A stretch of 64,000 nt of DNA from a phage: the sequence record PX441839.1, one strand, 5' to 3'. Each line of letters opens with the position of its first letter. Positions within the stretch are counted from its first letter, which is position 1. Under the pieces are notes generated by a model. That model had not been told where the DNA came from, ran no database searches, and worked only from the letters and a program-made list of their open reading frames with translations. Shown piece after piece: positions 583-39,644 of the stretch. A program made the translations under genes and the position numbers.

Positions 583-1230
583 ATGGCTTCCGTAGATCGT
601 TATGATGCTGCATATAATGTGTTTATCAGCAGGTATGTTAGAAACAACCTTCATACAAACATACGTGGAAAGGTTGTTGGGGTAGATTACAGTGGACCAT
701 CAGTAGATGTTCAACCAATGACCTATACCCAATTCCCATCAGGGACAAAAGATTCCTATCCTGTTATTTATGATGTCCCCATTCTCCTTCCTTCTGGGGC
801 AAATGGAAAGGCCAGGTTGACAATGCCTATCAAAGTTGGGGATATAGTTGGCCTGTCGTTTTCAGAGAGAAACGAGAGCGATGTCATGGATATGAACACC
901 CACCAGCTATTCCCAGGTTGGGCAGTGACTCAAATATTCACAGACGGGAACAGGAAACCAATAGACCCTGATAACGTTGTCCTTGAGAACGATAAGTCGA
1001 TTATGACCTATAAGCCAGATGGGACTATGACATTCAAAAACCCTTCTGTCAACATCGAGGCAAAACCAAACGGCCAGGTCTTTGTGAATGGCTGTGAGAT
1101 AACCCCTGACGGAAACGTGATAACCAGGGCTGGTGTGAACCTTAATGAATTTTGGCAGAAATATGTATCTCACGTCCACCCAGGTGTCCAATCAGGCGGG
1201 TCTTCAACTCAGCCAACAACACAAGTTTAA
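583..1230 (+). CDS. Baseplate spike/assembly protein (gpV-like by position and size)
   Basis: 215 aa ORF first in a V-W-J-I-fibre-chaperone-like order; tight spacing to neighbours. Confidence 0.35.
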   Translation: MASVDRYDAAYNVFISRYVRNNLHTNIRGKVVGVDYSGPSVDVQPMTYTQFPSGTKDSYPVIYDVPILLPSGANGKARLTMPIKVGDIVGLSFSERNESDVMDMNTHQLFPGWAVTQIFTDGNRKPIDPDNVVLENDKSIMTYKPDGTMTFKNPSVNIEAKPNGQVFVNGCEITPDGNVITRAGVNLNEFWQKYVSHVHPGVQSGGSSTQPTTQV

Positions 1231-1239
1231 GGAGATTAT

Positions 1240-1764
1240 GTGGCTACAAATTTCGTCGATTTTGCTCTGGACCCTTTGACAGGGGATCTTGATTTCTCAG
1301 GACAGGCTATCAACCTAATTGAGTCCAATCAGTTGTCCCTGAGGCAGAGGCTGTACCTCAGGTTTGCGGTATGGGCAGGAGATTGGTGGTTTGATGAAAC
1401 TTTCGGATTTCCATATAGAGCCTTTATTTCGAAAAAGACCATCAAATCAGTTCTTGACGGCAGAATAAAATCTGAGGTGAGAATGGAACCTGATGTCATG
1501 GAGATATCTGAGTTCCGGTCTGAGATGGACGTTGTCAACAGGACATATCAATGTTTCTTCACTGTCGTTACCCAAGAAGGTATTGAGGTGAATATGGCCT
1601 TTATGGGCCAAGACAACTTCGAATACCCAACACCTCCAGAAAGTAACGTATCTCTGTGTGGTGATGAGGGAGTTGTAATCCAGTTCAAGAATAAACTGTA
1701 CTACTTAATAAACTTCCGTTTACCATCCTATGGTGATGCCACTTGGGTAAATACTTGGAAATAA
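1240..1764 (+). CDS. Baseplate wedge protein (gpW/gp25-like by position)
   Basis: 174 aa ORF between the V-like and J-like genes; followed by a terminator. Confidence 0.35.
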   Translation: MATNFVDFALDPLTGDLDFSGQAINLIESNQLSLRQRLYLRFAVWAGDWWFDETFGFPYRAFISKKTIKSVLDGRIKSEVRMEPDVMEISEFRSEMDVVNRTYQCFFTVVTQEGIEVNMAFMGQDNFEYPTPPESNVSLCGDEGVVIQFKNKLYYLINFRLPSYGDATWVNTWK

Positions 1765-23703: not shown

Positions 23704-24825
23704 TTAATCTACACTTGCACTTATTTCAGTCGCAAGTCTAAAGCTCCCTTCGACCAAGCCAGGGATCTCCTCAACATTGTTAATTACAACATTTGACACT
23801 CTGACAGGAGGAGAACTCGGCAGGTAATCCTCCACCTTGCTTGCCACAACATCACCGTTTGTGTTTTTGACCACCAGTTTCGAGGCAGATCTTGATGTAG
23901 TGGTTGGAGCCTTTGTGTACGTTGTAACCTGAACAGCTTTTATCTGTTGACCACCTGGTGCTCTCCAGCTTGGGGACAGGGCTACAATTGGTGCCTTCCC
24001 TACAGTTTCAGATGCCAATGAATTCACAGCAGGGGAGTTCATAGCCCTCCCCATTGTATTTGAACCCCCATAGACGATATCTGAAATTGTTTGTGTCGTT
24101 CCTCCAGAGAAGCTACCTATGTCAGTGACACTTTGTGTTGTTCTTGTTATTTGGGGTTCACCCAAGAACTCAAAATTCCCTTCTTCATTGTATGCAGTAT
24201 ACATCCTTCCAAACATTAGTGGGTTAACAGTGTCGCCAAAGGCAACTCCATCGTACAAAGCACCAGAGAACCCTATGAAAAGTCCAGTCCCAACTGGCAT
24301 ACGCTCTGCGAAAGTGTAAGGACCAAGCGGCCCTGCCGGGGCATCTCCGTTGAGTGAGTTCCATGTCTCAAAGCTATCTTCACTGACCTTTCTTATACAC
24401 ACCTCCATGTAGTTATAACCAGGGGTGTACGATGATCGCATCAGGACTGTAGATGGGTCAACCCCATTGAACTGGTTTGTAAGTATCCCCGTCCGGAGGA
24501 ATCCTCTATTAAAGGGGAAGAATACCCGATACCCGAAGGTAAAGGTGGCATTCACTGGAGCTTCAAGAAGTATCTTCCTGACATCTATGGTGAACCCACC
24601 ATAATCTCCAGTGGAGCTTGTAAACCTGATTGCGAACACGGGGGATGATCCTCCACTCTGGGAGGCGGTCATAAGGGACCCCGGCAAGGTAGGTGATTTT
24701 ATCATAGATATTGACACACCGAGCTTTTTTGACAGGTACTCCTCAAGACCCTTTTCATAATCGTTGCTGGAATTATATGCGAATGGTGTCATATCCAAAA
24801 AATCTGTAAATCCGAGTATTGCCAT
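23704..24825 (-). CDS. Array paralog C (about 373 aa, possible lectin-like beta-sandwich)
   Basis: Shares diverged blocks with paralogs A and B (Y-x-A-[FY]-N-x-E-G; GDVVASK near the C-terminus); ATG with AAGGAG SD; overlaps the stop of micro-ORF C. Confidence 0.5.
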   Translation of the reverse strand: MAILGFTDFLDMTPFAYNSSNDYEKGLEEYLSKKLGVSISMIKSPTLPGSLMTASQSGGSSPVFAIRFTSSTGDYGGFTIDVRKILLEAPVNATFTFGYRVFFPFNRGFLRTGILTNQFNGVDPSTVLMRSSYTPGYNYMEVCIRKVSEDSFETWNSLNGDAPAGPLGPYTFAERMPVGTGLFIGFSGALYDGVAFGDTVNPLMFGRMYTAYNEEGNFEFLGEPQITRTTQSVTDIGSFSGGTTQTISDIVYGGSNTMGRAMNSPAVNSLASETVGKAPIVALSPSWRAPGGQQIKAVQVTTYTKAPTTTSRSASKLVVKNTNGDVVASKVEDYLPSSPPVRVSNVVINNVEEIPGLVEGSFRLATEISASVD

Positions 24826-24827
24826 AA

Positions 24828-25025
24828 TCACTCCTTAATTGGTGATGTTAAGACTTCTGTTACCACGAGTAGCGTGTTCTGTGCCAACTCAGGTTGAAGG
24901 AGAACCTCTGTGACCACAATGCCGACATTGGCAGAAAATTGTGGTGTAATAAGAACCTCTGTTGTCACTAAATAGACGTTGGAAAACATTGCCTGTTCCC
25001 CAACGGCGGTCATGATTTCAATCAT
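24828..25025 (-). CDS. Micro-ORF C: conserved N-module plus three 17-aa tandem repeats
   Basis: MIEIMTAVG..., then VTTEVLITPQFSANVGI / VVTEVLLQPELAQNTLL / VVTEVLTSPIKE; start overlaps the stop of paralog B (ATGA). Confidence 0.5.
   Translation of the reverse strand: MIEIMTAVGEQAMFSNVYLVTTEVLITPQFSANVGIVVTEVLLQPELAQNTLLVVTEVLTSPIKE
24831..24968 (-). repeat. Three tandem 51-bp (17-codon) repeats inside micro-ORF C
   Basis: Repeated AGAACCTCTGT(T/G)... units visible on the plus strand. Confidence 0.6.
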
Positions 25026-26089
25026 ACATCCACAACCCTCTCGCTGGAAGCAACGAACGAAAGACCTGCCAACTGGTCCCTTCCTGAAAGTGGAATAGTC
25101 ACCTTGCTAACCCCACGGGCGTAATCTTGACTATCGTTCTTTATGCTTTTCGATTTCAAAAGCTCACCATCAGAACTTACTATCTGAGATGTGATATCCA
25201 CAGACTTGCCTTGTACACTTGATCTTCCAACTAGTGTAGAGCTAACCGCAGCAATCTTCACAGAAGGGTCAAGAGTTGAAAGATTAGCTTTTGCCACTGC
25301 TGGGTTTACTAGGGTTGTTGGACCCAGCAATCCTCCCAAGTGATTATAGTTTAATCTGTTGGTAAGTGTTGCCTCCCCGTTTGGGTTATCACCTCCAGAT
25401 ACCAGTGTGTTTGGTAATGTTCTTACCGAGCAAGTTCCCAAACGCTCCTCAAGACCTTCCTTGTTGAATGCCCAATATTGGTCCATAAATGTTACCTCCA
25501 CTTGAGTGGTTGGTAACTTATTGGTGGTAAGAGGGGACCAATTATACCCAGTGCCTATTACCATTTGCTGGGGAAGAGAGTTTACAGAATCGTTTTGCAA
25601 GACAGTGCCGTCAACCCAAGCCCTTAGTCGATATGAGGTTGCAGAAACTTTACTTACTTCAAGCTCCACGTACACTGATCTTTCTGATCCCGAGTACCTC
25701 TGCATAGGGTAATCCAAAACTGCTGCCAAAGATCCAGAGGTAAACCCTCCCAACCTTAGGTCTGCGGTCATATATTCTTGGGGGATGATTACTCGGCTTC
25801 CGACCGTAAGGGTATCGCCAACATCCACAATCCAAGGCCCAATCGACGTCACAGTTGCTGCGTATGATGTCATCGTCGGAAAGAATGACACCTTATTTTG
25901 ACCAACGGTTCCGTACATGGTGCCGGATGAAATGTAGTAATCGAATCTACCTCCGTTTGAACCCACAGGGGTTTTTGGAATACAAGCGGCATTTAATGTT
26001 TGTAGCAGCAGGAGCGCATCGTTACCTTGTATTTGCCCCTTGTTAGGGAATTCCCTGAGGGAACCGAACCCATTGATGTGAAAAATCAT
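25022..26089 (-). CDS. Array paralog B (about 355 aa)
   Basis: Conserved blocks IVDVGDTLTVG, YWAFNKEGLEERLG, VGRSSVQG shared with paralog A; start overlaps micro-ORF B stop. Confidence 0.5.
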   Translation of the reverse strand: MIFHINGFGSLREFPNKGQIQGNDALLLLQTLNAACIPKTPVGSNGGRFDYYISSGTMYGTVGQNKVSFFPTMTSYAATVTSIGPWIVDVGDTLTVGSRVIIPQEYMTADLRLGGFTSGSLAAVLDYPMQRYSGSERSVYVELEVSKVSATSYRLRAWVDGTVLQNDSVNSLPQQMVIGTGYNWSPLTTNKLPTTQVEVTFMDQYWAFNKEGLEERLGTCSVRTLPNTLVSGGDNPNGEATLTNRLNYNHLGGLLGPTTLVNPAVAKANLSTLDPSVKIAAVSSTLVGRSSVQGKSVDITSQIVSSDGELLKSKSIKNDSQDYARGVSKVTIPLSGRDQLAGLSFVASSERVVDV

Positions 26090-26094
26090 ACAAC

Positions 26095-26286
26095 TCACCC
26101 CACAGTATAAAGATATTCTTGAACAAAAGCCGCTGAGTTAATCTCTGACGGGACATAATACAGATATTCTTGAACAAAAGCAACAGTATCTGTATTTGTT
26201 GGGGAGTAGTACAGGTACTCCTGAACAAAAGTCACAATCTCAGGATTAATGGCTCCACTTCCAGAGGCTGTCATCATCTCCAACAT
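26095..26286 (-). CDS. Micro-ORF B: conserved N-module plus three 17-aa tandem repeats
   Basis: MLEMMTASG..., then VQEYLYYSPTNTDTVAF / VQEYLYYVPSEINSAAF / VQEYLYTVG. Confidence 0.5.
   Translation of the reverse strand: MLEMMTASGSGAINPEIVTFVQEYLYYSPTNTDTVAFVQEYLYYVPSEINSAAFVQEYLYTVG
26098..26226 (-). repeat. Three tandem 51-bp repeats inside micro-ORF B
   Basis: Repeated GATATTCTTGAACAAAAGC-like units on the plus strand. Confidence 0.6.
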
Positions 26287-26302
26287 AGCATTACCTCAAT
26301 AA

Positions 26303-26320
26303 GACGCCCCGAAGGGCGTG
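26303..26320 (-). other. Inter-cassette RNA hairpin
   Basis: ACGCCC-CGAA-GGGCGT between paralog A stop and micro-ORF B start; only a weak T-run follows, so attenuator or processing site rather than full terminator. Confidence 0.35.
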
Positions 26321-26324
26321 TGAC

Positions 26325-27377
26325 TTAAACATTCGGTTCTTTTTCCCTTGAAGATACGAAACTGTAGTTTGTAAGTTCAGACATTGGTTTATCACTCACA
26401 TCCAAAACTGTTTCACAGAAACCTCCACGATAATCAGGGGTTACAGATTCCTTTGTGGTTGAGGATACTACCTTTCCAGTGTGATCCAGAATCTGACTGG
26501 TCACCGGAGCAGGAACTCCCGTTACCGACGACTTACCTACAGTTGTCATCTTAAAAGCCTTAATCCTTAGGTTAGGGTTCGGGCTTGGCATATTCACCTT
26601 TTGTACCATAGGGTCGCGAAGGGTTATCGGGTCCTGAGACCCTTTCGAGAGATCCCAATTAACCCTTGCGGTCCCCCAAGTGGACCCACCAGGGTTTTCA
26701 CTTCCTGCCGTTAATGTTCTTGGGACTTGGGTCACGGTTGCTCTCCCAATTCTCTCATCCCTTCCCTCAGTATTAAATGCAAAATAGATATCTTGGAAAT
26801 AAAAACTCCCCGCTGGGTTGGTGTTGGATTTCCAAAGAACACTTGTTCCAATAGCACCATAGTTGAACAGTTCCGACCCTTGACCCGCTTTCCTCAAAAG
26901 ACCGTTTACCCACATCTCGTAAGTGTATGGGTAATCAGGATGATCTGTTTTTCTAACTACCATCTCCACATACGGATTAGCTGTCCTATCTGTGTGGTCA
27001 CAAACCATGGTTAATGACGACAGATACCCATTTGAAAATCCACCAACCGCAGGTAATGAATTTGCGTGAGTAGATGTCATACCCAATCCACAACCAACCG
27101 TCAAAGCGTCCCCAACATCAATAATTATGGATGGGAGGTGAATATTCAAACATCCGATCCCTGATGGACCCAATACGTTCATTGACAACCTGTTGGTCCC
27201 AGGTAAAGATAGATTAGGGCTAGAACTCTGGTATGCATAATTTGCAAAAGTTGCACCTTGCTTTGGGCTTTGTGGGTGCCCGTACCGCAGAGAAGTTAAA
27301 ACGGTTTGGATATCGTTAGTGCTTACCAAGTTAGTTAATGGCTCCCACACAGAAAACCCCTGAATTCCGATAATCAT
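26325..27377 (-). CDS. Array paralog A (350 aa, possible lectin-like beta-sandwich)
   Basis: IIDVGDALTVG, YFAFNTEGRDERIG, VGKSSVTG blocks; SD AGAGGAAAG; ATG overlaps micro-ORF A stop (ATGA). Confidence 0.5.
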   Translation of the reverse strand: MIIGIQGFSVWEPLTNLVSTNDIQTVLTSLRYGHPQSPKQGATFANYAYQSSSPNLSLPGTNRLSMNVLGPSGIGCLNIHLPSIIIDVGDALTVGCGLGMTSTHANSLPAVGGFSNGYLSSLTMVCDHTDRTANPYVEMVVRKTDHPDYPYTYEMWVNGLLRKAGQGSELFNYGAIGTSVLWKSNTNPAGSFYFQDIYFAFNTEGRDERIGRATVTQVPRTLTAGSENPGGSTWGTARVNWDLSKGSQDPITLRDPMVQKVNMPSPNPNLRIKAFKMTTVGKSSVTGVPAPVTSQILDHTGKVVSSTTKESVTPDYRGGFCETVLDVSDKPMSELTNYSFVSSREKEPNV

Positions 27378-27574
27378 ACACTTTCCTCTATAACGTATAA
27401 ATATTCCGGCATTAAACCTATCGTACTTACATCGGGAATGATGGAGTACAAGTATTCCGGCATAATGCCTATAAGATTTACCTCTGGGGCCAGAATATAA
27501 AGATATTCCGGCATAAGACCTATGACCTCAACTGGGGCCTTTCTTACCCCTGATGCCGTCATCAATTCTATCAT
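27374..27574 (-). CDS. Micro-ORF A: conserved N-module plus three 17-aa tandem repeats
   Basis: MIELMTASGVRKAPVEVI, then GLMPEYLYILAPEVNLI / GIMPEYLYSIIPDVSTI / GLMPEYLYVIEESV. Confidence 0.5.
   Translation of the reverse strand: MIELMTASGVRKAPVEVIGLMPEYLYILAPEVNLIGIMPEYLYSIIPDVSTIGLMPEYLYVIEESV
27377..27520 (-). repeat. Three tandem 51-bp repeats inside micro-ORF A
   Basis: Repeated (A/G)ATATTCCGGCAT(T/A)A... units on the plus strand. Confidence 0.6.
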
Positions 27575-27586
27575 ACATACCCCCGA

Positions 27587-28426
27587 TTACACTTTTCTTG
27601 CATTGCTGGGAAATTCTCGTTTCTCCGTATCACCCCATATGATCCTTACAGCAGATGCACCTGGGGCATTTGAAGATCCGTGTCCAGACCCACCTCCGAA
27701 GTTTCCTCCTCGTCTACCACTCTGGTCTTCGCCTCCAGACCCACCTCTTGCACTTGTGGGGATTTGACCACCCCTGCCCCCTGCACCATTGACACCTACT
27801 CCGTAAATACCCACTCCACCACCGCCACCTGAGTTTTCACCAGATGACCCTGAGAAGTAATATCCTACAGATCCTCCACCCCCACCACCTTCCCCGCTAC
27901 CTCCAGCGGAGTAATTTGTAGAAGGGGGGTATGCATTACCTCCGTCCCCTCCCTTTCCTATATACCCTGCTGCACCTCCAGCGCCAGCACATCTTTTCCT
28001 GTCATTGGCGGAGGAGTTACTCCCTCCAGCACCACCTTTGTTTATTACCGCACCACCCATATCAGGATACGATCCTGTGTAAGGTTCCGGTCCAGAACCA
28101 AACCCTGCGACAACCAGCGGAGTTCCATCCCGAAAAAGTCCAACAACAGTTGTCCCATCATCGCTGCCTCTTGTGTGGACCTGTAGAGTCTCCCCAGGTA
28201 GCACAGGTATGTGGTTTCTCCATACTAGGTCTCCCCCAGCACCACCTCTACGTGGGAGAGGATCTGTTTGAGGCATCCCTCCTTGACCGACACACACTAC
28301 GCTAATATCTTCCACATTGTTTGGAACAACCCACAACTTAGGTGCAGTAGTGAGGGAAGTGTACTCCACATTCCCTAGTTTAACTGGAGCTTTAGTTTTT
28401 ACCGTCGCTGTCATTAATTCTAACAT
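27587..28426 (-). CDS. Glycine-rich protein with fused N-module
   Basis: Starts MLELMTATVKTKAPVKLGNVEY (resembles the micro-ORF N-module), followed by long GGxGG low-complexity tracts; start moved to the internal ATG that carries the shared motif. Confidence 0.45.
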   Translation of the reverse strand: MLELMTATVKTKAPVKLGNVEYTSLTTAPKLWVVPNNVEDISVVCVGQGGMPQTDPLPRRGGAGGDLVWRNHIPVLPGETLQVHTRGSDDGTTVVGLFRDGTPLVVAGFGSGPEPYTGSYPDMGGAVINKGGAGGSNSSANDRKRCAGAGGAAGYIGKGGDGGNAYPPSTNYSAGGSGEGGGGGGSVGYYFSGSSGENSGGGGGVGIYGVGVNGAGGRGGQIPTSARGGSGGEDQSGRRGGNFGGGSGHGSSNAPGASAVRIIWGDTEKREFPSNARKV

Positions 28427-28451
28427 AACTTTCCTCTTTAAGATACTAATT

Positions 28452-28709
28452 CTAGAACGGGTCTCCATCCAAGATCGGTATTAGCTGTACCGTTAATCTT
28501 CCCACCGAAGATATTCCCAGTAGACTAGGAGATACCTCTGCGTGGAACATGTTATTTTGGTACATTGTGAATTCAGTCGATAGTGAGTACCTGCCGTAAA
28601 TTGGAGGGTTAAAGTCCGTAGTTGGCAAAGTCAGAAGTGTCATAAGTACCTCTCTAAAATTCAATGCAATTGGATCGCTGTTTATAAAACCATAAAGTCT
28701 TCCTTCCAA
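28452..28709 (-). CDS. Hypothetical small protein
   Basis: 85 aa ORF inside the array; contains an EVLMTLLTL stretch. Confidence 0.3.
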   Translation of the reverse strand: MEGRLYGFINSDPIALNFREVLMTLLTLPTTDFNPPIYGRYSLSTEFTMYQNNMFHAEVSPSLLGISSVGRLTVQLIPILDGDPF

Positions 28710-28842
28710 ATTACCACAATTTCAAGCATTATTTACCCTCTGTGTTGCATGGAAGGATCTTTATTGATCCTCGACGTACCGCAGGATTCTTATCACTCCT
28801 TGCACACTGTTGTCGGGTACTGGTGAGTATAGCCTAGGTATC

Positions 28843-29379
28843 TCAAGTATATATAAACTCCCCTGTAAAGTTTACATCCGTGTATATTCCACGAAACGGA
28901 GATACAATCTTCATCAACCCGCTTACAGGGTCTAAGTACACAAAATTAGTAACCGTATATCCTAAGTAACTGGAGTAAGAGTTACTGGTGTGGTTATTCC
29001 TTGAAACCGAAATATATTGATTATAAGTAACAGTTACTGTTTTCGTTATAAGGACGGTAGAATTAGTCCGCAGCAGGGCTTGGTACGTACCATACGAAGG
29101 TGAGGCATGTTGCGCTACCAGATACCACCAAGAGTCGTAAGTTACCGAAGTTCCGTATGGGCTTCCCCACATCCTCCCGTCTGTTGAGTACACTTTCCCG
29201 ACATCATACGCCATAGTTTGGGCCGGAGCAGTGACCTCGGGTATCCAAGACCCTGCCGCCTGATTGTCAGGGATACGGAGTATTCCCCTTTGTTGGTCTA
29301 GCCATTTTAGAAACACAGGATAGGTCATGGGGCCCTCGATTGGGGCGGATGCCCCTGATACCGACAGTAACTCAAGCAT
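28843..29379 (-). CDS. Array family member with fused N-module (about 179 aa)
   Basis: Starts MLELLSVSGASAPIEG; the longer ORF-track start lies inside the upstream terminator hairpin, so the internal ATG with a GGAGAG SD was chosen. Confidence 0.4.
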   Translation of the reverse strand: MLELLSVSGASAPIEGPMTYPVFLKWLDQQRGILRIPDNQAAGSWIPEVTAPAQTMAYDVGKVYSTDGRMWGSPYGTSVTYDSWWYLVAQHASPSYGTYQALLRTNSTVLITKTVTVTYNQYISVSRNNHTSNSYSSYLGYTVTNFVYLDPVSGLMKIVSPFRGIYTDVNFTGEFIYT

Positions 29380-29397
29380 AAATCTCTCCAATATTTG

Positions 29398-29501: not shown

Positions 29502-29801
29502 TCAGTGACATTGCCCCCAATTAAGTCCTGTCAGATACTCACCTGTGATATGTACAGGTGCCTTCATCATCTTAGCTGCTTGTTCAACGCAACGAACAAC
29601 CATTTCACCGACAGGGCAGTAGATGATAGTGAATATTCCATTCTCATCGGGGTCGCACTTAAACTTACCTTCCTTGACACAATGACCATCCAGAACCATA
29701 CGCTTCTTGAGGCAATCCTCAACAAAAGCTTTTGCTTCGACTTCATTGTCAAACTTCCATTCCTTCTTGAACTTATTTGGAACTTCAAGCTGGTATTCAT
29801 C
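29502..29801 (-). CDS. DNA polymerase (family A), exon 2
   Basis: Translation begins DEYQLEV (motif C region) and ends ...LNWGQCH, resembling the T7 gp5 C-terminus; a TAA lies in frame just upstream, so this cannot be a continuous extension. Confidence 0.55.
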   Translation of the reverse strand, partial: DEYQLEVPNKFKKEWKFDNEVEAKAFVEDCLKKRMVLDGHCVKEGKFKCDPDENGIFTIIYCPVGEMVVRCVEQAAKMMKAPVHITGEYLTGLNWGQCH

Positions 29802-30631
29802 CAAAGTTTAGCAGGTTCGTTAATCCTGCCCACACCATTACGTGTTGCCATACGGTTTCCCGTAGGATCGGACTATATCACCACCCTTTTCAGGGTGCTC
29901 CCCATTTCGACGCCACTTGGTCGCCTACGCCTCTCGGCTAGTCTCTGAACGTTAAGACCACGTATACTTCTCGGAAATATGCTTCCACTGCCGACGCTGC
30001 TTAATGGCTCGTACTGTTGCATAGGGGAATCCCATGTCGCGTACCTCTGCCTGGCTCATTCCGCTTTCAAGAAGCTGGCAAATGGTCATCACTTCGTCTT
30101 CTGTGAGGGCACTATTAGCATTGTTGATACCTTCCGCGCTGCGACAGTTGTGGCGATAGGCGTTCTCTATGTTTTTGCCTCTCGTAACCCACTGTAGGTT
30201 GTCTTTGTGGTTATTCCTTTTATCGGGCCACTTGTGATCAACCTCTGGAAGATTGTTCGGATTGGGAACAAAACATTCTGCCACCAAAACATGGACCGCC
30301 TTTGTCGTCGCCTTTTTGTTAAGGTAAAGACTGACAATTGCATACCCTCTTCCATTATCAACATGCTTCATAGGTTTACCTCGACGACCTATAATGGTCC
30401 CGTCCTCGTAAACTTTATATCCGAAATAGTCTTTGTACTCCACGTAGTCCTCTTCGCTGCTGATTAACATAGCTGCACTTTAGTTTATTATTAACCCAGT
30501 GTCAACCTTAGCCTTCCAGCAATTAAAGGAGTTTTCGATGTAGGTTGCCCTACAAAGCCACAATGTTACTTATGGTAATAGATAATACGACGAACTCCCT
30601 CGTCATACCATCCCTTCTTGACCAGTTGCCA
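29802..30631 (-). mobile_element. Group I intron in the DNA polymerase gene (boundaries approximate, about +/-6 nt)
   Basis: On the transcribed strand: P-like AATTGCTGGAAGG, R-like GTTCAGAGACTAGCC, S-like GATATAGTCC, terminal G before exon 2; contains an HNH ORF. Confidence 0.55.
29952..30470 (-). CDS. HNH homing endonuclease (intron-encoded)
   Basis: VHVLVAECFVPNPNNLPEVDHKWPDKRNNHKDNLQWVT His-Me finger signature; paralog of the ORF in the second intron. Confidence 0.65.
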   Translation of the reverse strand: MLISSEEDYVEYKDYFGYKVYEDGTIIGRRGKPMKHVDNGRGYAIVSLYLNKKATTKAVHVLVAECFVPNPNNLPEVDHKWPDKRNNHKDNLQWVTRGKNIENAYRHNCRSAEGINNANSALTEDEVMTICQLLESGMSQAEVRDMGFPYATVRAIKQRRQWKHISEKYTWS

Positions 30632-32899
30632 GTGAAGCAAGATTCCAACCAGGTCAAATAGTGCTGCACCACCATTCTGCTGAAATGCGTTCAACAGGGA
30701 GTGCTTTGAACGAGTCCAAATCTTACGCCCATCCAAACCATAGATGAATCTTTTCCCTGTCGCTTCCCAGAATTTCTCCAGCGCTTCTTTACGACCTTTT
30801 AATCCGATGTTGCTATCCCAGAATGCGTTGATTACATCCTGTGCCTTATCTACTGTGATTCCAAGCATGGATGCAATCTTGGGTGCCTGAGCGCCGTACA
30901 TGATTCCATACGTGATACTCTTTCCCTCGCCACGAGAAACCTTCTTCCCCGCTGCCTTTGTGTATGCCTCTGCGTTTCGGGTGTGGGCGTCCCCCGACTC
31001 CATGATTTCAAGGTAAGCGCCACCATCGAACTCATACGCACCCCAAGCCGCAATCATACCTTCCAGGTTAGAACCATCAATACCCACTTGGTACTTACCC
31101 TTTGGTGCTCGCCAAAGGGAACGCATCTCATAACCAAACAACACCTTCGGATCAGGCTTAGGCATGTTTGCGCAGATCGTGTGCTTACGACGCCCAGTGT
31201 TGGTAATCCCTGAGAACCTTGCTGGTAATCGACCATCAATCTTCAAGCGTGGGTGGTTAAGAAGTCCAGTATCAACCTTATCCTCTTTCAGTGGATCAAG
31301 GACAGATCGTCGGTTACGTGCAGATAACCACTGAACAATGCCTTTAGCCATCGCACCATCCACCTTTTCCAAGTTTGGGCACAATCCCTGCTGGTCTTTC
31401 AACTGAGGGCTTGTTGGCAATGCACGGGCCTTCTTACGGAAGAATTTGAACATCTTCTCCTTGTCTGCCCACTGCTTAGGGGTAATGTGCAAGTTCTTAA
31501 GGATAAGATCACGATATTCTGTCTGATCTAGTTGCTCAATATACTCCCGCACAATTGCATCAACTTCACCATCCGGACGTTGCTTTTTAAACTGGTCCTT
31601 TGTTGCATCCTTTGTACGCCAAATTGTTGGAATCCAACCCGCATCTCGGATGAGGAACTTCTTAACATCATCCTGGTTACCGATACGCATCGGAATCATT
31701 ATATCTGGCATGGTCTTATTCTTCAAGTCCGCCAAAGCCCGTGCCATATCCTCTGGAGGTAGTGGCTCCAGTGTGGATTGTTTTTCGTTCTGACTACGAA
31801 TGAACTGAGGCATTTGATCCTCATCTTCCACCCCGTGGTCATTACAGTATTTAATAGCCGCAGCCGTAAGTGAACCATCTGCCTTAAATGCTTTAGCCGG
31901 AGGCCCCTTGAAATCAAGGGCTTCCCAATTAATATTGTATCCTAACTTCTCCAGCCATTTCCAACCTGTGCCGGACAATGTCCCGTCACCCTTGAAAGGT
32001 TTGGATGGGAAAGTTGGTTGTGCGGATTTAGCCATCTCTTTCTTCGGAAGCTGAGGCTCAACCTCTTCCTCAATCTTCTTCATGAAGGCATCAACCGTAT
32101 CGCGGAGTTTCAGCGCCGCCTCTATGTCAAAATCAACACCTTGGATTTCTTGCTCAATCATCAGGTAATCGGTAAGCATACCTCGACGAAGAGAGTCTTT
32201 CCAGTTGATCATTTTATATTTTGTTGGGACACGCTCATCTTTAAACATGAAGCGTTTATCATCTGGGTACGCATCGCAGGTGATTTCCTTCATAAGGGCG
32301 TCCCACACCTTTTCGTTGATGATAACGTCCTCAATGATACGGTCACAATACTTCCACAACGGGAGTCCACGCCAATCATCAATGGCGACTTTCAGGTTGG
32401 CTACTCTCATACCCCATGCTTCCAGACCATGAGGGCCAACAGGTTTCATCTTTCCTGTGACAGGGTTTTTAACCATTTCTGGGCAACCCTTCGGCAATGG
32501 GCGGTCAGGGTAGAGTGTACGAGACATAGACAAGGAGTCAAACAGGTTAACCTGTTTTCCATTGATCGTTCCCATGCACTTAGGATCGGCAAACATATCG
32601 TATTGTGTACCGAACAGCTTCTTGAACAGACGTAAGTCATATCCAAACAAGTTGTGAATAACAATGCTACTAGGGACTTCTGTGAACCATCTATTAAGGT
32701 CAGAGAAGTTCATTACATGCAGATTGAATCCCTTCGCATTAACGAAGTTCAAAGCCTCTTGATAACCCTCTCGCGCTGGGTCCATGAAGAGATACCAGTT
32801 ATCCTTTTTGTACTCCTTGAAGAGGATGCAGTGAGCATGTAAGTTCTCCTCGTCAAGTAAACCAGATGCTTCCGCATCACCTACCCATAAACCTTTCAT
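30632..32899 (-). CDS. DNA polymerase (family A, T7 gp5-like), exon 1
   Basis: Exo I GDAEASGL; motif A IDGSNLEGMIAA; motif B RGEGKSITYGIMYGA; the ORF-track C-terminal 21 codons (30566-30631) are interpreted as intron read-through. Confidence 0.75.
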
Positions 32900-36787: not shown

Positions 36788-37258
36788 TTAGAAAGGTGGT
36801 TGGTCATCCCAATCACTGTCGTCTTCCACAACCTCAGGTGTGACTTTAGATTCTTCCGGTTTGGAATCCTCTTTAATCTCCATCTGCTGTGGTTCAATGT
36901 CATCTTCATCATCAGGGATATCGTCTTCCTTGAGATCAGATAGACCTTTCTCCGAGTTCTCTTGTGATAATGGCTGCATTTTACCAACAGCCTTCTCAAC
37001 ATAATGTTCAGAACTTGGATCATCTTCTGGATGAATCGCATACCACTCTCGAAGAGTTTCATATGGACTGTCCAAGAAGCCTTCTGGCGGTTCTAAGTAA
37101 TCACCTGTGTCAATATCATAGAACACAGGGAACTTCCCGCTACGCCCGTGCTTACGGTCATCTAGAATTACAAACCAAGAGGTATTTCGCTCTTTCATTG
37201 GCAACTCTGGATCTTTGTTACGCTCAATACCCACCATAAAATAAGTGTTCTTTTTGTC
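36788..37258 (-). CDS. Primase-helicase (T7 gp4-like), exon 2
   Basis: Begins DKKNTYFMVGIERNK...DDRKHGRSG...YDIDTGDYLEP (helicase C-terminal motifs) and ends in an acidic tail DDSDWDDQPPF with terminal Phe, as in T7 gp4. Confidence 0.55.
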   Translation of the reverse strand, partial: DKKNTYFMVGIERNKDPELPMKERNTSWFVILDDRKHGRSGKFPVFYDIDTGDYLEPPEGFLDSPYETLREWYAIHPEDDPSSEHYVEKAVGKMQPLSQENSEKGLSDLKEDDIPDDEDDIEPQQMEIKEDSKPEESKVTPEVVEDDSDWDDQPPF

Positions 37259-38123
37259 CAGTGGGTTCGCTACTCCCACCCGGTGCGATTCCTGGCACCC
37301 GCCTACACTTTCGTGCAGGAACAGACTATATCATCACCTTTCGGTGCTCTCCGCTTCGGGACCGCTTGGCCCTAACGCCTTTCGGCTAGTCGTTGAGGTT
37401 TTTGCACGTTCTGGGTACATCTTCCAAGAATACAAGTCCCCGACCTCTTTCCAATCCCTTCGGGAGCGGATATTGAGGACTGCTGACCTTGTTACAGGTA
37501 ATCCACTATTATCGACAATCTTCTGCGCTGACCAACCCTCAGAAAGAAGCCTACAAATTTTGTGAACCTCTGCCTCTGTGACTTTGGACCTGTAATGATC
37601 CTCTCCCCTCTTTGGAAGCTTATTGGCAATAGAGTGCTCAAGATTTTGCCTACCAGTGACCCATTCCAGGTCATCTTTGTGGTTAAATTCCTTGCCTCTT
37701 TTATGATTAACTTCGGGTAAGTTCAGCGGGTTTGGAATATAAGTCTTAGCTACCAACCTGTGAACATACTCGGGCGTTCTCTTACCTTTAAGTATCACAT
37801 TGACAAAATAATACCCTGTACTCTTGTTTCGAATGTTCTTCAAAAATTTATTTGTGAACAAACTAAATACCTTGCCATCTTCTGTTACAAGATATTTACT
37901 ACCCTCTTCTATTGGTATCATGTTTCCCCCTTCTTTATTCTAACAAAAGGGTATAATACACAAAAGAATTTGAATATGCAACTTACCTGCTGATTACCCA
38001 ATCCTCTGTCTTTTCAAACATTCACGCCCACCCTTACGGGTCACGTTGTAGTGCCAGAGGCTCTAAGGGCTTCCCAGCAATTCAAAGAGTTTTACATGCG
38101 CTAAATCAACGCATCATCGCACG
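37259..38123 (-). mobile_element. Group I intron in the primase-helicase gene (boundaries approximate)
   Basis: P-like AATTGCTGGGAAG, R-like CAACGACTAGCC, S-like GATGATATAGTCTG on the transcribed strand; core clearly related to the polymerase intron; contains an HNH ORF. Confidence 0.5.
37334..37921 (-). CDS. HNH homing endonuclease (intron-encoded)
   Basis: YVHRLVAKTYIPNPLNLPEVNHKRGKEFNHKDDLEWVT; paralog of the ORF at 29952-30470. Confidence 0.65.
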   Translation of the reverse strand: MIPIEEGSKYLVTEDGKVFSLFTNKFLKNIRNKSTGYYFVNVILKGKRTPEYVHRLVAKTYIPNPLNLPEVNHKRGKEFNHKDDLEWVTGRQNLEHSIANKLPKRGEDHYRSKVTEAEVHKICRLLSEGWSAQKIVDNSGLPVTRSAVLNIRSRRDWKEVGDLYSWKMYPERAKTSTTSRKALGPSGPEAESTER

Positions 38124-39644
38124 AGAACCTGCAAACTGTGCCGACTGAACCTGACCACCAAATTCATGGGGTTTTCCAGATTCCGGTTTGTTCAAGTGAC
38201 AGAAACAATAATATGTGAAACCTAAGTCCTTTGCAAGGATAGAGATCTCATCTGAAAATCGTTCCAGTTCTGTGTTAGCATCACCTGGTGACATACCTTG
38301 CACAAGTCGAGTAATTGGGTCGATAATAATATCTTCACAACCCTCCACCAAGACTGCGTGGCGGATTGCACCCTTCACCTCGTCCCATACTGCACGACCA
38401 TAGTTGGAATAATAAATGATCTTATCGCCAACATAATCTGTAGCTTGGATTAGTTCTTCATGCTTGAAGTATCCACGTTGTCCTTCAAAGATTTCGTTAC
38501 CCCAAACATCTCGGTAAGTCCCATCTTCCTGAGGGATCATTACCTTTTCTGCGTTAATGAAGTCCTTGTGGTAAATTTTACCTGCAACCTTCTTACAAGT
38601 GATGTCGTTCTCTTCTTCAAACTTAAAGATACCGACTTTCTTCTTGTCTTTTTCAATGATGTGCTCGACAAGTTGGTTAACAAACTCGGACTTACCGATC
38701 TTAACACCTGCACCAAGGAAGTATCCCTCTCCTTTACGACGACCCAGTGTCAACTTGGTCATGGTAGGCCAAGGCCATGATTTACCAAGTTTTGGAATCT
38801 CGTGCGCTTTGTCTCGAAATTGTGCATACGTAGAGAAACCTTCTGGTACATAGTCCTTTGGCTTCATTGCTGCCCAGAATAATTGGTCAGCCATTCCCTT
38901 GATGTACATGTCGCATGGGTCCATGTCCTCTGGGATGTCAACAACCTTCATCTGAGGAATTACTGAGTAAACCGCTGCAACAGCATCCTTACCTTTCATA
39001 ATCCCCTTGGCCTTTTCTGCCTCCGTTGCACGATCAGCATCAAAAGCTACAATAATCTCTTCAAACTTGTTCAGAAGCTTGTAGTTGTTCTTCTGAGCTA
39101 GGTTCTGCACGGCATTAGATGTGCCGTTGGAAATTGAGACCACCGTGAAGTTTGGTTTACGTGCATTTCCATCCTTAGATTTATACTTTTCTCGGAGAAC
39201 CTGCCACAACACTGCCGCATCGTACTCGCCCTCCGTGATAAAAATCATGCGACGTGAGGATTTATTTGCACCCTCCAGACCAAACAGGTCACAAGCGACA
39301 GATTGGAAACCAATCGTACTAAAGTGGCCCTTCTGTTGCTTAGGAATGGTCAGATCTCGCTTCTTAAAGCCGACGATCTTACCCTCCAGTGTGTAGGGAA
39401 AATAGTGCGCCTCTGGTGTCATCCCATCCTTGGCAGACAGCTTAGTCCTGATTCCAAAGCGCTCTGCCGTCTTCTGATCGATACCTCGCTCAGGGATGGC
39501 TTTAAATGGGTAAGTTTTTACATCTTCTACTGTTTCTTCAACCTTGTTCATACGACCACCCCCTACTGAACGAGATACCGATGCCTTCGGGTTCTTGTAC
39601 CCCGTCTTATAACCACCAAACAGACCTTCACCTAATGTGCTCAC
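38124..39644 (-). CDS. Primase-helicase (T7 gp4-like), exon 1
   Basis: TOPRIM FITEGEYDA; Walker A GAGVKIGKSEF; H3-like CHLNKPESGKPHEFGG; last few ORF-track codons (38106-38123) interpreted as intron read-through. Confidence 0.7.

What the first reader, a model, noticed from the sequence alone, without database searches (positions are those of the whole stretch)
29502..32899. Family A DNA polymerase gene apparently split by a group I intron carrying an HNH homing endonuclease
The upstream ORF has exonuclease and polymerase motifs A and B but terminates before motif C. About 830 nt downstream, after an in-frame stop, a second ORF starts with DEYQLEV (motif C region; preceding exon likely ends ...LLH) and ends NWGQCH, like the T7 gp5 C-terminus. 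The intervening DNA carries recognisable group I core elements (AATTGCTGGAAGG; GTTCAGAGACTAGCC; GATATAGTCC) and an HNH ORF. Group I introns in phage DNA polymerase genes are well documented. The proposed 5' exon would end in C rather than the usual U, so the exact junction is uncertain.
Basis: partly seen in the sequence, partly recalled or inferred. Interest (0 to 1): 0.55.

Follow-up and report, generated by a model that had tools for sequence, protein, structure and literature searches.

The report
Group I intron splitting phage polymerase
The phage's DNA polymerase gene is interrupted, inside its catalytic motif C, by a 770-base self-splicing-type (group I) intron that carries its own homing endonuclease gene; this is a well-known kind of selfish element, and close copies at the same site in related phages have been shown to splice.

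Summary
On the minus strand, a family A DNA polymerase gene (32899..29502) is split by a 770-nt group I intron (30571..29802) that carries an I-HmuI-like HNH endonuclease ORF (30470/30443..29952).

An intron-less homologue, Salmonella phage SSBI34, fixes the junction uniquely. Exon 1 ends ...IIYYH (CAU, a canonical U). The intron ends in G. Exon 2 starts DEYQLEV. The joined 875-aa protein is 98% identical to the SSBI34 polymerase.

Rfam RF00028 scores 54 bits against a threshold of 50. I aligned 13 same-site introns from Vequintavirinae and from Vibrio, Aeromonas, Pseudomonas and Pseudaeromonas phages. My P1–P9.2 model, including the P3/P7 pseudoknot, pairs 98.5% of cells, and 30 of 57 pairs show compensatory changes.

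The insertion site is His|Asp of motif C (E. coli Pol I 881), the site reported for the T7-like phages ΦI and W31. The same-site intron of Pectobacterium phage CB7 was shown to splice by RT-PCR. This is therefore a new member of a known kind, of low novelty.

In passing, I found a second, unreported HNH-bearing group I intron in the primase/helicase gene (38108..37250).

The parts
30572..32899 (-). DNA polymerase exon 1 (776 codons; 3'-5' exonuclease region, motifs A and B, and the His of motif C). It ends ...TAT TAC CAT.
   Evidence: ORF list. Alignment to intron-less SSBI34 pol. Pfam DNA_pol_A and T7 gp5 alignment.
29802..30571 (-). Group I intron, 770 nt. It begins AAGUAAC and ends ...AAACUUUG (terminal G at 29802). 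An in-frame stop (AAG TAA) follows exon 1 immediately.
   Evidence: Clean 770-nt gap against SSBI34; the junction cannot slide. Rfam RF00028 at 54 bits. Covariation.
29502..29801 (-). DNA polymerase exon 2 (99 codons plus stop). It begins GAT GAA = Asp-Glu of motif C.
30558..30575 (-). P1: exon CCAU plus intron AA pairs with the internal guide UUGUGG. There is a U·G wobble at the 5' splice site. The loop is GUAACA.
   Evidence: Sequence. All 6 pairs are kept in 13/13 introns. Reproduced by the single-sequence fold.
30539..30554 (-). P2 hairpin UGUAGG-GCAA-CCUACA (GNRA loop).
   Evidence: All 6 pairs show compensatory changes and 100% are paired.
30527..30531 (-). P3 5' strand CUCCU (pairs with 29902..29898).
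   Evidence: 3 of 5 pairs have compensatory changes.
30516..30521 (-). P4 5' strand UGCUGG (pairs with UCAGCA at 30463..30458).
   Evidence: The fourth pair is U-A here and G-C in FV3, PVP-SE1 and VLCpiM5b (read by eye).
30477..30505 (-). P5 extension holding a sigma-70-like promoter (TTGACA-17-TAAAGT) just upstream of the endonuclease ORF.
   Evidence: Consensus scan. The same element sits at the same place in 9 of 11 ORF-carrying same-site introns, and the whole extension is absent from the 2 ORF-less ones. Function is inferred.
29952..30470 (-). HNH homing endonuclease ORF, I-HmuI-like. It is 172 aa from ATG 30470, but more likely 163 aa from GTG 30443, which is preceded by the Shine-Dalgarno (ribosome-binding) sequence GAGGA.
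   Evidence: phmmer to 1U3E, E = 5e-9. AF2 model with pLDDT 85; Foldseek top hit 1U3E, prob 1.0. Homologues are mostly 163 aa.
30442..30457 (-). P6 (GCG) and P6a 5' strand (AGGACUACGU). This stretch contains the Shine-Dalgarno sequence and the GTG start of the ORF.
   Evidence: Duplex predictions for 13 introns give the same P6/loop/P6a architecture from different sequences. P6 covariation.
29949..29963 (-). P6a 3' strand (ACGUGGUCUU, the last ORF codons plus stop) and P6 3' strand (CGU).
29939..29945 (-). P7 5' strand GAGACUA (bulged A), preceded by J6/7 UCA. It pairs with UAGUCC at 29875..29870 and forms a pseudoknot with P3.
   Evidence: 2 of 6 pairs are compensatory and 100% are paired. 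The Rfam alignment had instead used a decoy inside the ORF (one search compared).
29929..29938 (-). P7.1 hairpin GCC-GAGA-GGC.
   Evidence: There is no covariation; it is replaced by larger inserts in FV3, KLEP7, 2L372D, SPA01 and PVP-SE1.
29909..29925 (-). P7.2 hairpin GGCG(A)CC-AAGU-GGCGUC.
   Evidence: 5 of 6 pairs have compensatory changes.
29898..29902 (-). P3 3' strand GGGAG.
29882..29897 (-). P8 hairpin CACCCU-GAAA-AGGGUG.
   Evidence: 5 of 6 pairs are compensatory. Single-sequence fold.
29870..29875 (-). P7 3' strand UAGUCC, preceded by J8/7 GGUGAUA.
29811..29866 (-). P9 (29866..29848), P9.1 (29845..29832) and P9.2 (29829..29811) hairpins.
   Evidence: Compensatory changes occur in each. 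All three appear in the single-sequence fold.

Best explanation
The region is one family A (T7 gp5-like) DNA polymerase gene interrupted by a mobile group I intron with subgroup-IA2-type architecture.

**How the polymerase is made.** The gene is transcribed as a single pre-mRNA. The intron folds into the P1–P9.2 ribozyme core. An exogenous guanosine attacks the U·G pair in P1, after ...CAU. The freed exon 1 then attacks after the terminal G (29802). This joins CAU to GAU and restores the YYH-DE motif C, giving an 875-aa polymerase.

**How the intron spreads.** The intron carries an I-HmuI-type HNH (probably nicking) homing endonuclease ORF in the loop of P6a. The ORF is most likely transcribed from its own sigma-70-like promoter in the P5 extension. 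In the folded precursor its Shine-Dalgarno (ribosome-binding) sequence and start codon are held in the P6a helix. In mixed infections the enzyme would cut intron-less polymerase alleles near the His|Asp codons, and recombinational repair would copy the intron in (homing).

**Shown versus inferred.** Shown here: the exact junctions, the ribozyme fold supported by covariation, the endonuclease family, and presence/absence polymorphism among relatives. Shown by others for a same-site homologue: splicing in vivo in phage CB7. Inferred: self-splicing of this copy, endonuclease activity and specificity, use of the promoter, and translational occlusion.
For: 1. **Junction.** Alignment with the intron-less SSBI34 pol gives a single 770-nt gap. 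The joined ORF is 875 aa, has no internal stop and is 98.06% identical. The joined protein extends the Pfam DNA_pol_A match from profile position 260 to 349 and lifts it above the cut-off (33.3 to 37.4 bits).
2. **Canonical splice sites.** There is a U·G at the 5' splice site within a 6-bp P1, and a terminal G.
3. **Rfam.** RF00028 scores 54 bits here. ORF-less same-site homologues score 70 and 77 bits. Intron-less loci give no hit.
4. **Covariation.** Over 13 same-site introns, 98.5% of 741 cells are paired. 30 of 57 pairs have changes on both sides, and 0 of 500 shuffles reach this. Slid controls pair only 37–41%. P6a is formed by unrelated sequences in different lineages.
5. **Single-sequence folds.** These reproduce P1, P2, P4, P6a and P7.1–P9.2.
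6. **Endonuclease.** phmmer to I-HmuI (1U3E) gives E = 5e-9 with the D-H...N...N catalytic positions conserved. The AF2 model has pLDDT 85. 1U3E is the only significant Foldseek PDB hit, aligned over 169 columns.
7. **Experimental precedent.** The same site and same core occur in CB7, whose two HNH-bearing polymerase introns were shown to splice by RT-PCR and cDNA sequencing (PMC7344957).
8. **Known insertion site.** The site equals E. coli Pol I 881 / T7 H653|D654, reported for the self-splicing ΦI and W31 introns (PMC3428280).
Against: - No transcript or splicing data exist for this phage.
- The Rfam score is only 4 bits above threshold, and its alignment misplaced the P7 5' strand.
- P5 and P7.1 have no covariation support.
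- P10 is weak (about 3 bp at best, judged by eye).
- Pfam HNH_3 is just below its cut-off (22.5 vs 24.8 bits).
- No clear co-conversion tract marks a recent homing event.
- The promoter call is a consensus match, and two homologues miss the criteria.
Confidence: 0.93

Rival explanations
1. The insertion does not splice. The polymerase is made as two polypeptides (775 + 99 aa) that assemble after translation, as reported for the Aeromonas phage Aeh1 NrdA split by mobE.
For: Such cases exist. The CB7 paper reports one HNH-containing insertion (in the nicotinamide phosphoribosyl transferase gene) that did not splice, and it cites Aeh1 NrdA. GenBank records annotate the two pieces as separate 'DNA polymerase' CDSs.
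Against: The split falls between the His and the catalytic Asp-Glu of motif C. Exon 2 has no start codon or Shine-Dalgarno sequence of its own: the TTG of the listed ORF is the last three intron bases. An intact, covarying ribozyme core would have no reason to be conserved across 13 lineages. The same-site CB7 intron does splice.
Confidence: 0.03
2. The intron is a decayed relic. It no longer splices efficiently, or its endonuclease is inactive, so the element is immobile and perhaps needs host factors.
For: P10 is weak. The Rfam score is modest. No co-conversion signal was found. Pfam HNH_3 is below threshold.
Against: The polymerase is essential, so a non-splicing intron in it would be lethal. 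All core helices are intact in this copy. The HNH ORF is full length with conserved catalytic positions and a confident I-HmuI-like model.
Confidence: 0.03
3. The insertion is an intein, or a free-standing homing endonuclease gene lying between two genuinely separate genes, and the RNA model hit is due to chance.
For: Inteins and free-standing HNH genes are common in this phage subfamily.
Against: The reading frame stops two codons into the insert (AAG TAA). The Rfam E-value is 6e-11. Covariation supports the ribozyme fold. The two 'genes' are halves of one polymerase that is colinear with an uninterrupted homologue.
Confidence: 0.01

Closest known systems
Polymerase intron 2 of Pectobacterium phages vB_PatM_CB7 and phiTE (between CB7_51 and CB7_49; HNH CB7_50)
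   Same: Identical insertion site (…IIYYH|DEYQLEV…). The 5' core (P1–P4) and the 3' core (P7–P9.2) are homologous; blastn identity over the matched pieces, about 27% of the intron, is 91.7%. Same subfamily (Vequintavirinae). Splicing was shown by RT-PCR and Sanger sequencing (PMC7344957).
   Different: It carries an unrelated, shorter HNH ORF (127 aa) and a much longer P5 extension. CB7 and phiTE also have a second, upstream polymerase intron that this window lacks.
Split polymerase of Cronobacter phage CR9 and PBES 02 (and SSE121, LTH01/A73/W70/A5-4, FV3 and other rV5-like phages)
   Same: Same site and same architecture. The closest intron is 84.9% identical in nucleotides and its HNH is 93% identical in amino acids.
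   Different: These are annotated only as separate 'DNA polymerase' and 'HNH endonuclease' genes. No intron is annotated in the stretches fetched. The exons of the window are closer to the intron-less SSBI34.
Group I introns of T7-like coliphages ΦI and W31 (endonuclease I-TslI; Bonocora & Shub 2004)
   Same: Host gene (family A DNA polymerase) and insertion site 881 in E. coli numbering, reported in PMC3428280. From my own recollection of the 2004 abstract: subgroup IA2, with an HNH ORF in P6a, self-splicing.
   Different: Different phage family. Sequence relatedness could not be tested because the ΦI/W31 sequences and the paper were not available here.
[quoted passage not shown]
   Same: A group I intron in a phage family A polymerase gene. 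The endonuclease has the same fold and family (1U3E is the top hit by both sequence and structure).
   Different: Different insertion site (Pol I position 674, in the fingers, not motif C). The hosts are Gram-positive. About 26% amino-acid identity.
Phage T4 td, nrdB and sunY introns
   Same: From established knowledge: IA2-type phage introns whose homing endonuclease ORFs sit in peripheral loops, are expressed from internal promoters, and have ribosome-binding sites occluded in the precursor RNA.
   Different: Different genes. The endonucleases are GIY-YIG or other HNH families. No sequence relation was tested.

Membership tests
Group I intron (Rfam RF00028) | Covariance-model score at or above the curated gathering score | tested here: met
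   54.0 bits against 50, E = 6e-11. ORF-less same-site homologues score 69.8 and 77.3 bits.
Group I intron (Rfam RF00028) | Conserved core helices P3–P8, including the P3/P7 pseudoknot, maintained by compensatory change | tested here: met
   13 sequences and 57 pairs: 98.5% paired, 30 pairs changed on both sides, 0 of 500 shuffles, slid controls 37–41%.
Group I intron (Rfam RF00028) | 5' splice site follows a U that forms a U·G wobble in P1; the intron ends in G | tested here: met
   Exon 1 ends CAU. P1 is CCAU|AA with UUGUGG. The last intron base is G at 29802. The junction is fixed by the intron-less allele.
Group I intron (Rfam RF00028) | Guanosine-binding site: a conserved G-C pair in P7 next to a bulged nucleotide | tested here: met
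   P7 is G(A)GACUA with UAGUCC. The two G-C pairs flanking the bulged A are invariant in 13/13. This is consistency at the sequence level only.
Group I intron (Rfam RF00028) | Removal restores a functional, colinear host gene | tested here: met
   The joined ORF is 875 aa and 98% identical to the SSBI34 polymerase. Motif C YYHDE is restored.
Group I intron (Rfam RF00028) | Splicing (self-splicing in vitro or splicing in vivo) | not testable with these tools
   Only by proxy: the same-site homologue in CB7 splices in vivo (PMC7344957).
Subgroup IA2 | Extra helices P7.1 and P7.2 between P7 and the P3 3' strand, plus P9.1/P9.2 | tested here: met
   P7.1 is GCC-GAGA-GGC (no covariation). P7.2 has 5 of 6 compensatory pairs. 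P9.1 and P9.2 covary.
Subgroup IA2 | Assignment by subgroup-specific models or reference alignments (for example GISSD) | not tested
   No such library is available here. 'IA2-like' is an inference from the architecture.
I-HmuI-type HNH homing endonucleases | Sequence and fold similarity across the N-terminal DNA-binding sheet, the HNH ββα-metal core and the C-terminal helix-turn-helix | tested here: met
   phmmer to 1U3E, E = 5.4e-9. Foldseek to 1U3E: E = 5e-8, prob 1.00, 169 of 172 columns. Weak CENP-B_N helix-turn-helix hit at residues 122–159.
I-HmuI-type HNH homing endonucleases | Pfam HNH_3 (PF13392) above the gathering score | tested here: not met
   22.5 bits against a 24.8 cut-off. 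Most database homologues do carry precomputed PF13392.
I-HmuI-type HNH homing endonucleases | Catalytic Asp-His and Asn residues conserved | tested here: met
   VDH...NN...NLQWVT...N aligns with I-HmuI VDH...NN...NLRWVT...N. D78, H79, N91 and N100 are invariant in 21 homologues.
I-HmuI-type HNH homing endonucleases | Site-specific nicking or cleavage of the intron-less allele, and homing | not testable with these tools
   Indirect only: presence/absence polymorphism among close relatives (SSBI34, UPEC06 and DU_PP_I lack it).
Motif-C (Pol I site 881) polymerase introns of ΦI/W31 type | Insertion between the His and Asp codons of motif C | tested here: met
   YYH|DE aligns with T7 H653|D654-E655. 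Site 881 for ΦI/W31 is from PMC3428280.
Motif-C (Pol I site 881) polymerase introns of ΦI/W31 type | Sequence homology of the ribozyme or endonuclease to ΦI/W31 | not tested
   Those sequences were not found in the collections searched, and the papers are not held.

The most novel reading that the evidence does not exclude
The motif-C polymerase intron may be a single ribozyme lineage spread across several families of phages of Gammaproteobacteria. It appears to have been invaded independently by at least three unrelated endonuclease cassettes:
- an I-HmuI-like HNH of about 163–180 aa in P6a;
- a 127–130-aa HNH in P6a with a long P5;
- a LAGLIDADG gene in P7.1 of PVP-SE1.

ORF-less forms (VLCpiM5b, K460) lack the P5 extension altogether. 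In the ORF-carrying forms that extension holds a sigma-70-like promoter. If this reading is correct, the series is a natural record of how endonuclease genes, with their own promoters, colonise a pre-existing intron. The window's copy would be one state in that series.
Probability: 0.4. Interest if true: 0.4.

Novelty: new member of a known kind. Interest (0 to 1): 0.2.

Why it matters
The main value is for annotation. The polymerase of this phage should be annotated as one spliced 875-aa product, not as two genes plus an HNH gene, which is how the CR9, LTH01, A5-4, SSE121 and FV3 records fetched here annotate it. The exact junction (CAU|GAU, inside the catalytic YxHDE motif) removes the apparent non-canonical splice site.

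The comparative set assembled here has some wider use. It shows the same site and the same core with different or no endonuclease cargo across Vequintavirinae and Vibrio, Aeromonas, Pseudomonas and Pseudaeromonas phages. That makes it a compact system for studying intron and endonuclease mobility and cargo exchange. No new principle is involved.

Tried and rejected
The …LLH junction (exon ending in C) is rejected; the intron-less allele puts the junction 66 nt downstream.
- **Rfam's placement of P7.** Rfam put the P7 5' strand on GUACAAAGACUA inside the ORF. This is rejected because CB7 and phiTE, which have an unrelated ORF, conserve only the downstream UCAGAGACUAG, and P7 covaries with that copy.
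- **P5 pairing.** I could not derive a convincing P5 pairing, and the sequence is invariant, so it is left unassigned.
- **P4 columns.** MAFFT misaligned two P4 columns where FV3, PVP-SE1, VLCpiM5b and K460 have an extra base. Those two pairs were left out of the formal count and judged by eye.
- **Co-conversion test.** I compared exon identity to SSBI34 and CR9 in windows around the junction. The result was inconclusive: the exons stay SSBI34-like up to about 10 nt from the junction.
- **Exon 2 alone against the PDB** gave no significant hit, so the claim of a T7-like C-terminus is unverified.
- **Literature.** Bonocora & Shub 2004 and 2009 could not be read. The rV5 genome paper mentions only terminase introns.
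- **Whole-window Rfam scan in E-value mode** did not recover the second intron. A local scan did.
- **Scan for further I-HmuI-like ORFs in the window** found only the two intron ORFs.
Full report
**What is there.**
All features lie on the minus strand.
- ORF listing shows a 777-aa ORF (32899..30566), a 172-aa ORF (30470..29952) and a 100-aa ORF (29804..29502) ending NWGQCH.
- Pfam finds DNA_pol_A in the first ORF and a sub-threshold HNH_3 in the second.
- A phmmer search of the joined product against the PDB aligns it with T7 gp5 (E = 1e-17). Motif A (GIDGSNLE) and motif B (RGEGKSITYGIMYGA) fall in the long ORF. Motif C, YYH-DE-YQ, aligns with T7 WVH653-D654-E655-IQ.
- Rfam's group I model (RF00028) hits 30581..29849 on the minus strand at 54.0 bits (gathering score 50, E = 6e-11). 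It is the only Rfam hit in the 64-kb window in either gathering or E-value mode.

**Exact junctions.**
The window is from an unsequenced relative of Salmonella phage SSBI34 (Vequintavirinae). Identity is about 83–94% across syntenic blocks.
- SSBI34 has an uninterrupted 875-aa polymerase.
- The DNA alignment gives one clean 770-nt gap: exon 1 is 32899..30572, the intron is 30571..29802, and exon 2 is 29801..29502.
- The boundary cannot slide, because the flanking bases differ.
- Exon 1 ends ...CGT ATT ATC TAT TAC CAT (…RIIYYH). The intron starts AAG TAA, an immediate in-frame stop, and ends ...AAACUUUG. Exon 2 starts GAT GAA TAC CAG.
- The joined ORF is 875 aa and 98.06% identical to SSBI34. 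The Pfam DNA_pol_A match now runs through motif C and passes its cut-off.
With the true junction the 5' exon ends in the canonical U.

**The RNA.**
P1 is exon CCAU plus intron AA paired with UUGUGG, which puts a U·G wobble at the splice site.

I collected same-site introns (all …YH|DE…) from these phages:
- Vequintavirinae: CR9, CB7, phiTE, LTH01, SSE121, FV3, PVP-SE1, VLCpiM5b.
- Outside the subfamily: Pseudaeromonas phage KLEP7, Vibrio phage K460, Aeromonas phage 2L372D and Pseudomonas phage SPA01.

I trimmed the variable inserts, aligned the cores (A1) and wrote a structure with P1, P2, P3, P4, P6, P7 (pseudoknotted with P3), P7.2, P8, P9, P9.1 and P9.2. The count gave:
- 98.5% of 741 cells form standard pairs; shuffles average 85.3%, and 0 of 500 reach the observed value.
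- 30 of 57 pairs have changes on both sides; shuffles average 15.1.
- Sliding the 3' partners by 1–3 columns drops pairing to 37–41%.

Further points on the structure:
- P6a, which closes the ORF, is formed by quite different sequences in different lineages but keeps the same P6 / internal loop / P6a layout.
- Single-sequence folds of the window's own 3' domain, and of a 5' domain with the ORF interior replaced by GAAA, reproduce P1, P2, P4, P6a and P7.1–P9.2.
- The Rfam alignment had taken a decoy, GUACAAAGACUA inside the ORF, as the P7 5' strand. Comparative data show the true strand is GAGACUA at 29945..29939, directly after the ORF stop.
- P7.1/P7.2 and P9.1/P9.2 give the element a subgroup IA2-type architecture. 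This is an inference; no subgroup classifier was run.

**The ORF.**
- The 172-aa product matches I-HmuI, the HNH nicking endonuclease of the SPO1 polymerase intron (PDB 1U3E), at E = 5e-9. The catalytic Asp-His and Asn positions are conserved and invariant among 21 database homologues.
- An AlphaFold2 model (mean pLDDT 85) has 1U3E as its only significant PDB match: prob 1.00, 169 aligned columns, TM 0.53.
- Most homologues are 163 aa. The corresponding start here is GTG 30443, preceded by GAGGA.
- The upstream ATG (30470) lies in a core sequence (AUGYUAAUC) that is conserved even in ORF-less introns, so it is probably not the start.
- The Shine-Dalgarno sequence and the GTG lie in the 5' strand of P6a, which pairs with the last codons of the ORF. 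In the folded precursor, translation initiation should therefore be occluded. This is an inference, by analogy with the T4 introns.

**Distribution and cargo.**
The same ribozyme core occurs at the same site with different cargo:
- The I-HmuI-like HNH in P6a: this window, CR9, PBES 02, SSE121, LTH01, FV3, KLEP7, SPA01.
- A different 127–130-aa HNH with a long P5: CB7, phiTE, 2L372D.
- A LAGLIDADG gene inserted in P7.1 beside an empty P6a hairpin: PVP-SE1.
- No ORF at all: VLCpiM5b (343 nt) and K460 (254 nt).

SSBI34, UPEC06 and DU_PP_I lack the intron.

The intron in the window is closest to CR9 (84.9%), while its exons are closest to the intron-less SSBI34. No co-conversion tract longer than about 10 nt is visible. 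Gain by homing and loss from the SSBI34 lineage therefore cannot be told apart.

**Literature.**
- Buttimer et al. (PMC7344957) showed by RT-PCR and cDNA sequencing that both HNH-bearing polymerase introns of CB7 splice. The downstream one is the same-site homologue.
- PMC3428280 lists three known intron sites in phage family A polymerases: 674 (SPO1, SP82, Bastille, Pf-WMP3), 676 (phiL7) and 881 (ΦI, W31).
- Site 881 is His881|Asp882, which is the site used here.

**Mechanism and rivals.**
The best explanation (confidence 0.93) is a mobile, self-splicing-type group I intron whose removal restores motif C, with an I-HmuI-type homing endonuclease as cargo.
- A non-splicing 'fractured' polymerase is unlikely (0.03). 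The break separates the His from the catalytic Asp-Glu, exon 2 has no initiation signals, and the ribozyme is under clear purifying and compensatory selection.
- A decayed or immobile element (0.03) cannot be excluded for the endonuclease. It is implausible for splicing, because the gene is essential.
- An intein or chance hit is excluded by the immediate stop codon and the covariation.

**Novelty.**
This is a new member of a known kind. The phage is not in the collections searched: the best match for the polymerase region is 85.8%, and the best for the HNH protein is 93% to CR9 by tblastn (91% in the protein database). The element, its site and its endonuclease family are all documented. Interest is low (0.2).

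**Seen in passing.**
1. A second split gene. The primase/helicase is interrupted by an 859-nt insert (38108..37250) that is absent from SSBI34.
   - Exon 1 ends ...AUGAUGCGU, P1 is AUGCGU with GCGCAU, the insert ends in G, and it carries a 195-aa I-HmuI-like HNH ORF.
   - The joined product is 665 aa and 98.8% identical to the SSBI34 protein.
   - Rfam gives only 23.8 bits in a local scan.
   - Only one full-length relative was found, Escherichia phage W70.
2. A sigma-70-like promoter in the P5 extension (30505..30477). It recurs in 9 of 11 ORF-carrying homologues and is absent, together with the extension, from the ORF-less ones.
3. A related intron 3' core in the RNA polymerase gene of the T7-like Klebsiella phage RCIP0039.

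Noticed in passing
window 36788..39644 (minus strand); insert 38108..37250: A second split gene. The DnaB-type primase/helicase is interrupted by an 859-nt insert that is absent from SSBI34. The insert has group I hallmarks: exon 1 ends in U, P1 is AUGCGU with GCGCAU including a U·G, and the terminal base is G. It carries a 195-aa I-HmuI-like HNH ORF (37921..37334) that is 40% identical to the polymerase-intron HNH. The joined product is 665 aa and 98.8% identical to SSBI34. Rfam RF00028 gives only 23.8 bits (E = 0.0012) in a local scan, and the element was missed by both whole-window scans. Escherichia phage W70 is the only full-length relative found.
   Followed up: partly
window 30505..30477 (minus strand): A sigma-70-like promoter (TTGACA-17-TAAAGT) sits in the P5 extension of the intron, just upstream of the HNH ORF. 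An equivalent element occurs in 9 of 11 ORF-carrying same-site introns (12/12 consensus in Aeromonas phage 2L372D, 11/12 in CB7 and phiTE) and is annotated as a promoter in PVP-SE1. The two ORF-less introns lack the whole extension.
   Followed up: partly
window 30451..30441 and 29963..29954 (minus strand): The probable Shine-Dalgarno sequence (GAGGA) and GTG start of the HNH ORF lie in the 5' strand of helix P6a. That strand pairs with the last codons and stop of the same ORF. Homologues do the same with different sequences, which suggests translational occlusion in the folded precursor.
   Followed up: partly
window 30433..30422 (minus strand): A decoy copy of the J6/7-P7 consensus (GUACAAAGACUA) lies inside the HNH ORF. 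The Rfam alignment used it in place of the true P7 strand at 29945..29939. This is a caution for automatic intron annotation when a long ORF sits in P6a.
   Followed up: yes
L010 (Salmonella phage PVP-SE1), L011 (Klebsiella phage VLCpiM5b), L014 (Vibrio phage K460): The same ribozyme at the same polymerase site occurs with a LAGLIDADG gene in P7.1 (PVP-SE1), or with no ORF at all (VLCpiM5b 343 nt, K460 254 nt; Rfam 70 and 77 bits). The endonuclease cargo has therefore been exchanged or lost within one intron lineage.
   Followed up: partly
L013 (Klebsiella phage RCIP0039, T7-like), about 890..1650: The T7-type RNA polymerase gene appears to be split by an ORF-containing insert. The 3' part of that insert resembles the P7–P9 core of the polymerase intron (CAGAGACUAUCCGAAAGGAGUAGGGCC...GAUAUAGUCC). 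It is a different host gene and site.
   Followed up: no
window 24279..27600 and 28430..29385: These blocks have no detectable DNA similarity to the otherwise syntenic SSBI34 genome, so they are replaced or novel small-gene cassettes downstream of the polymerase gene.
   Followed up: no
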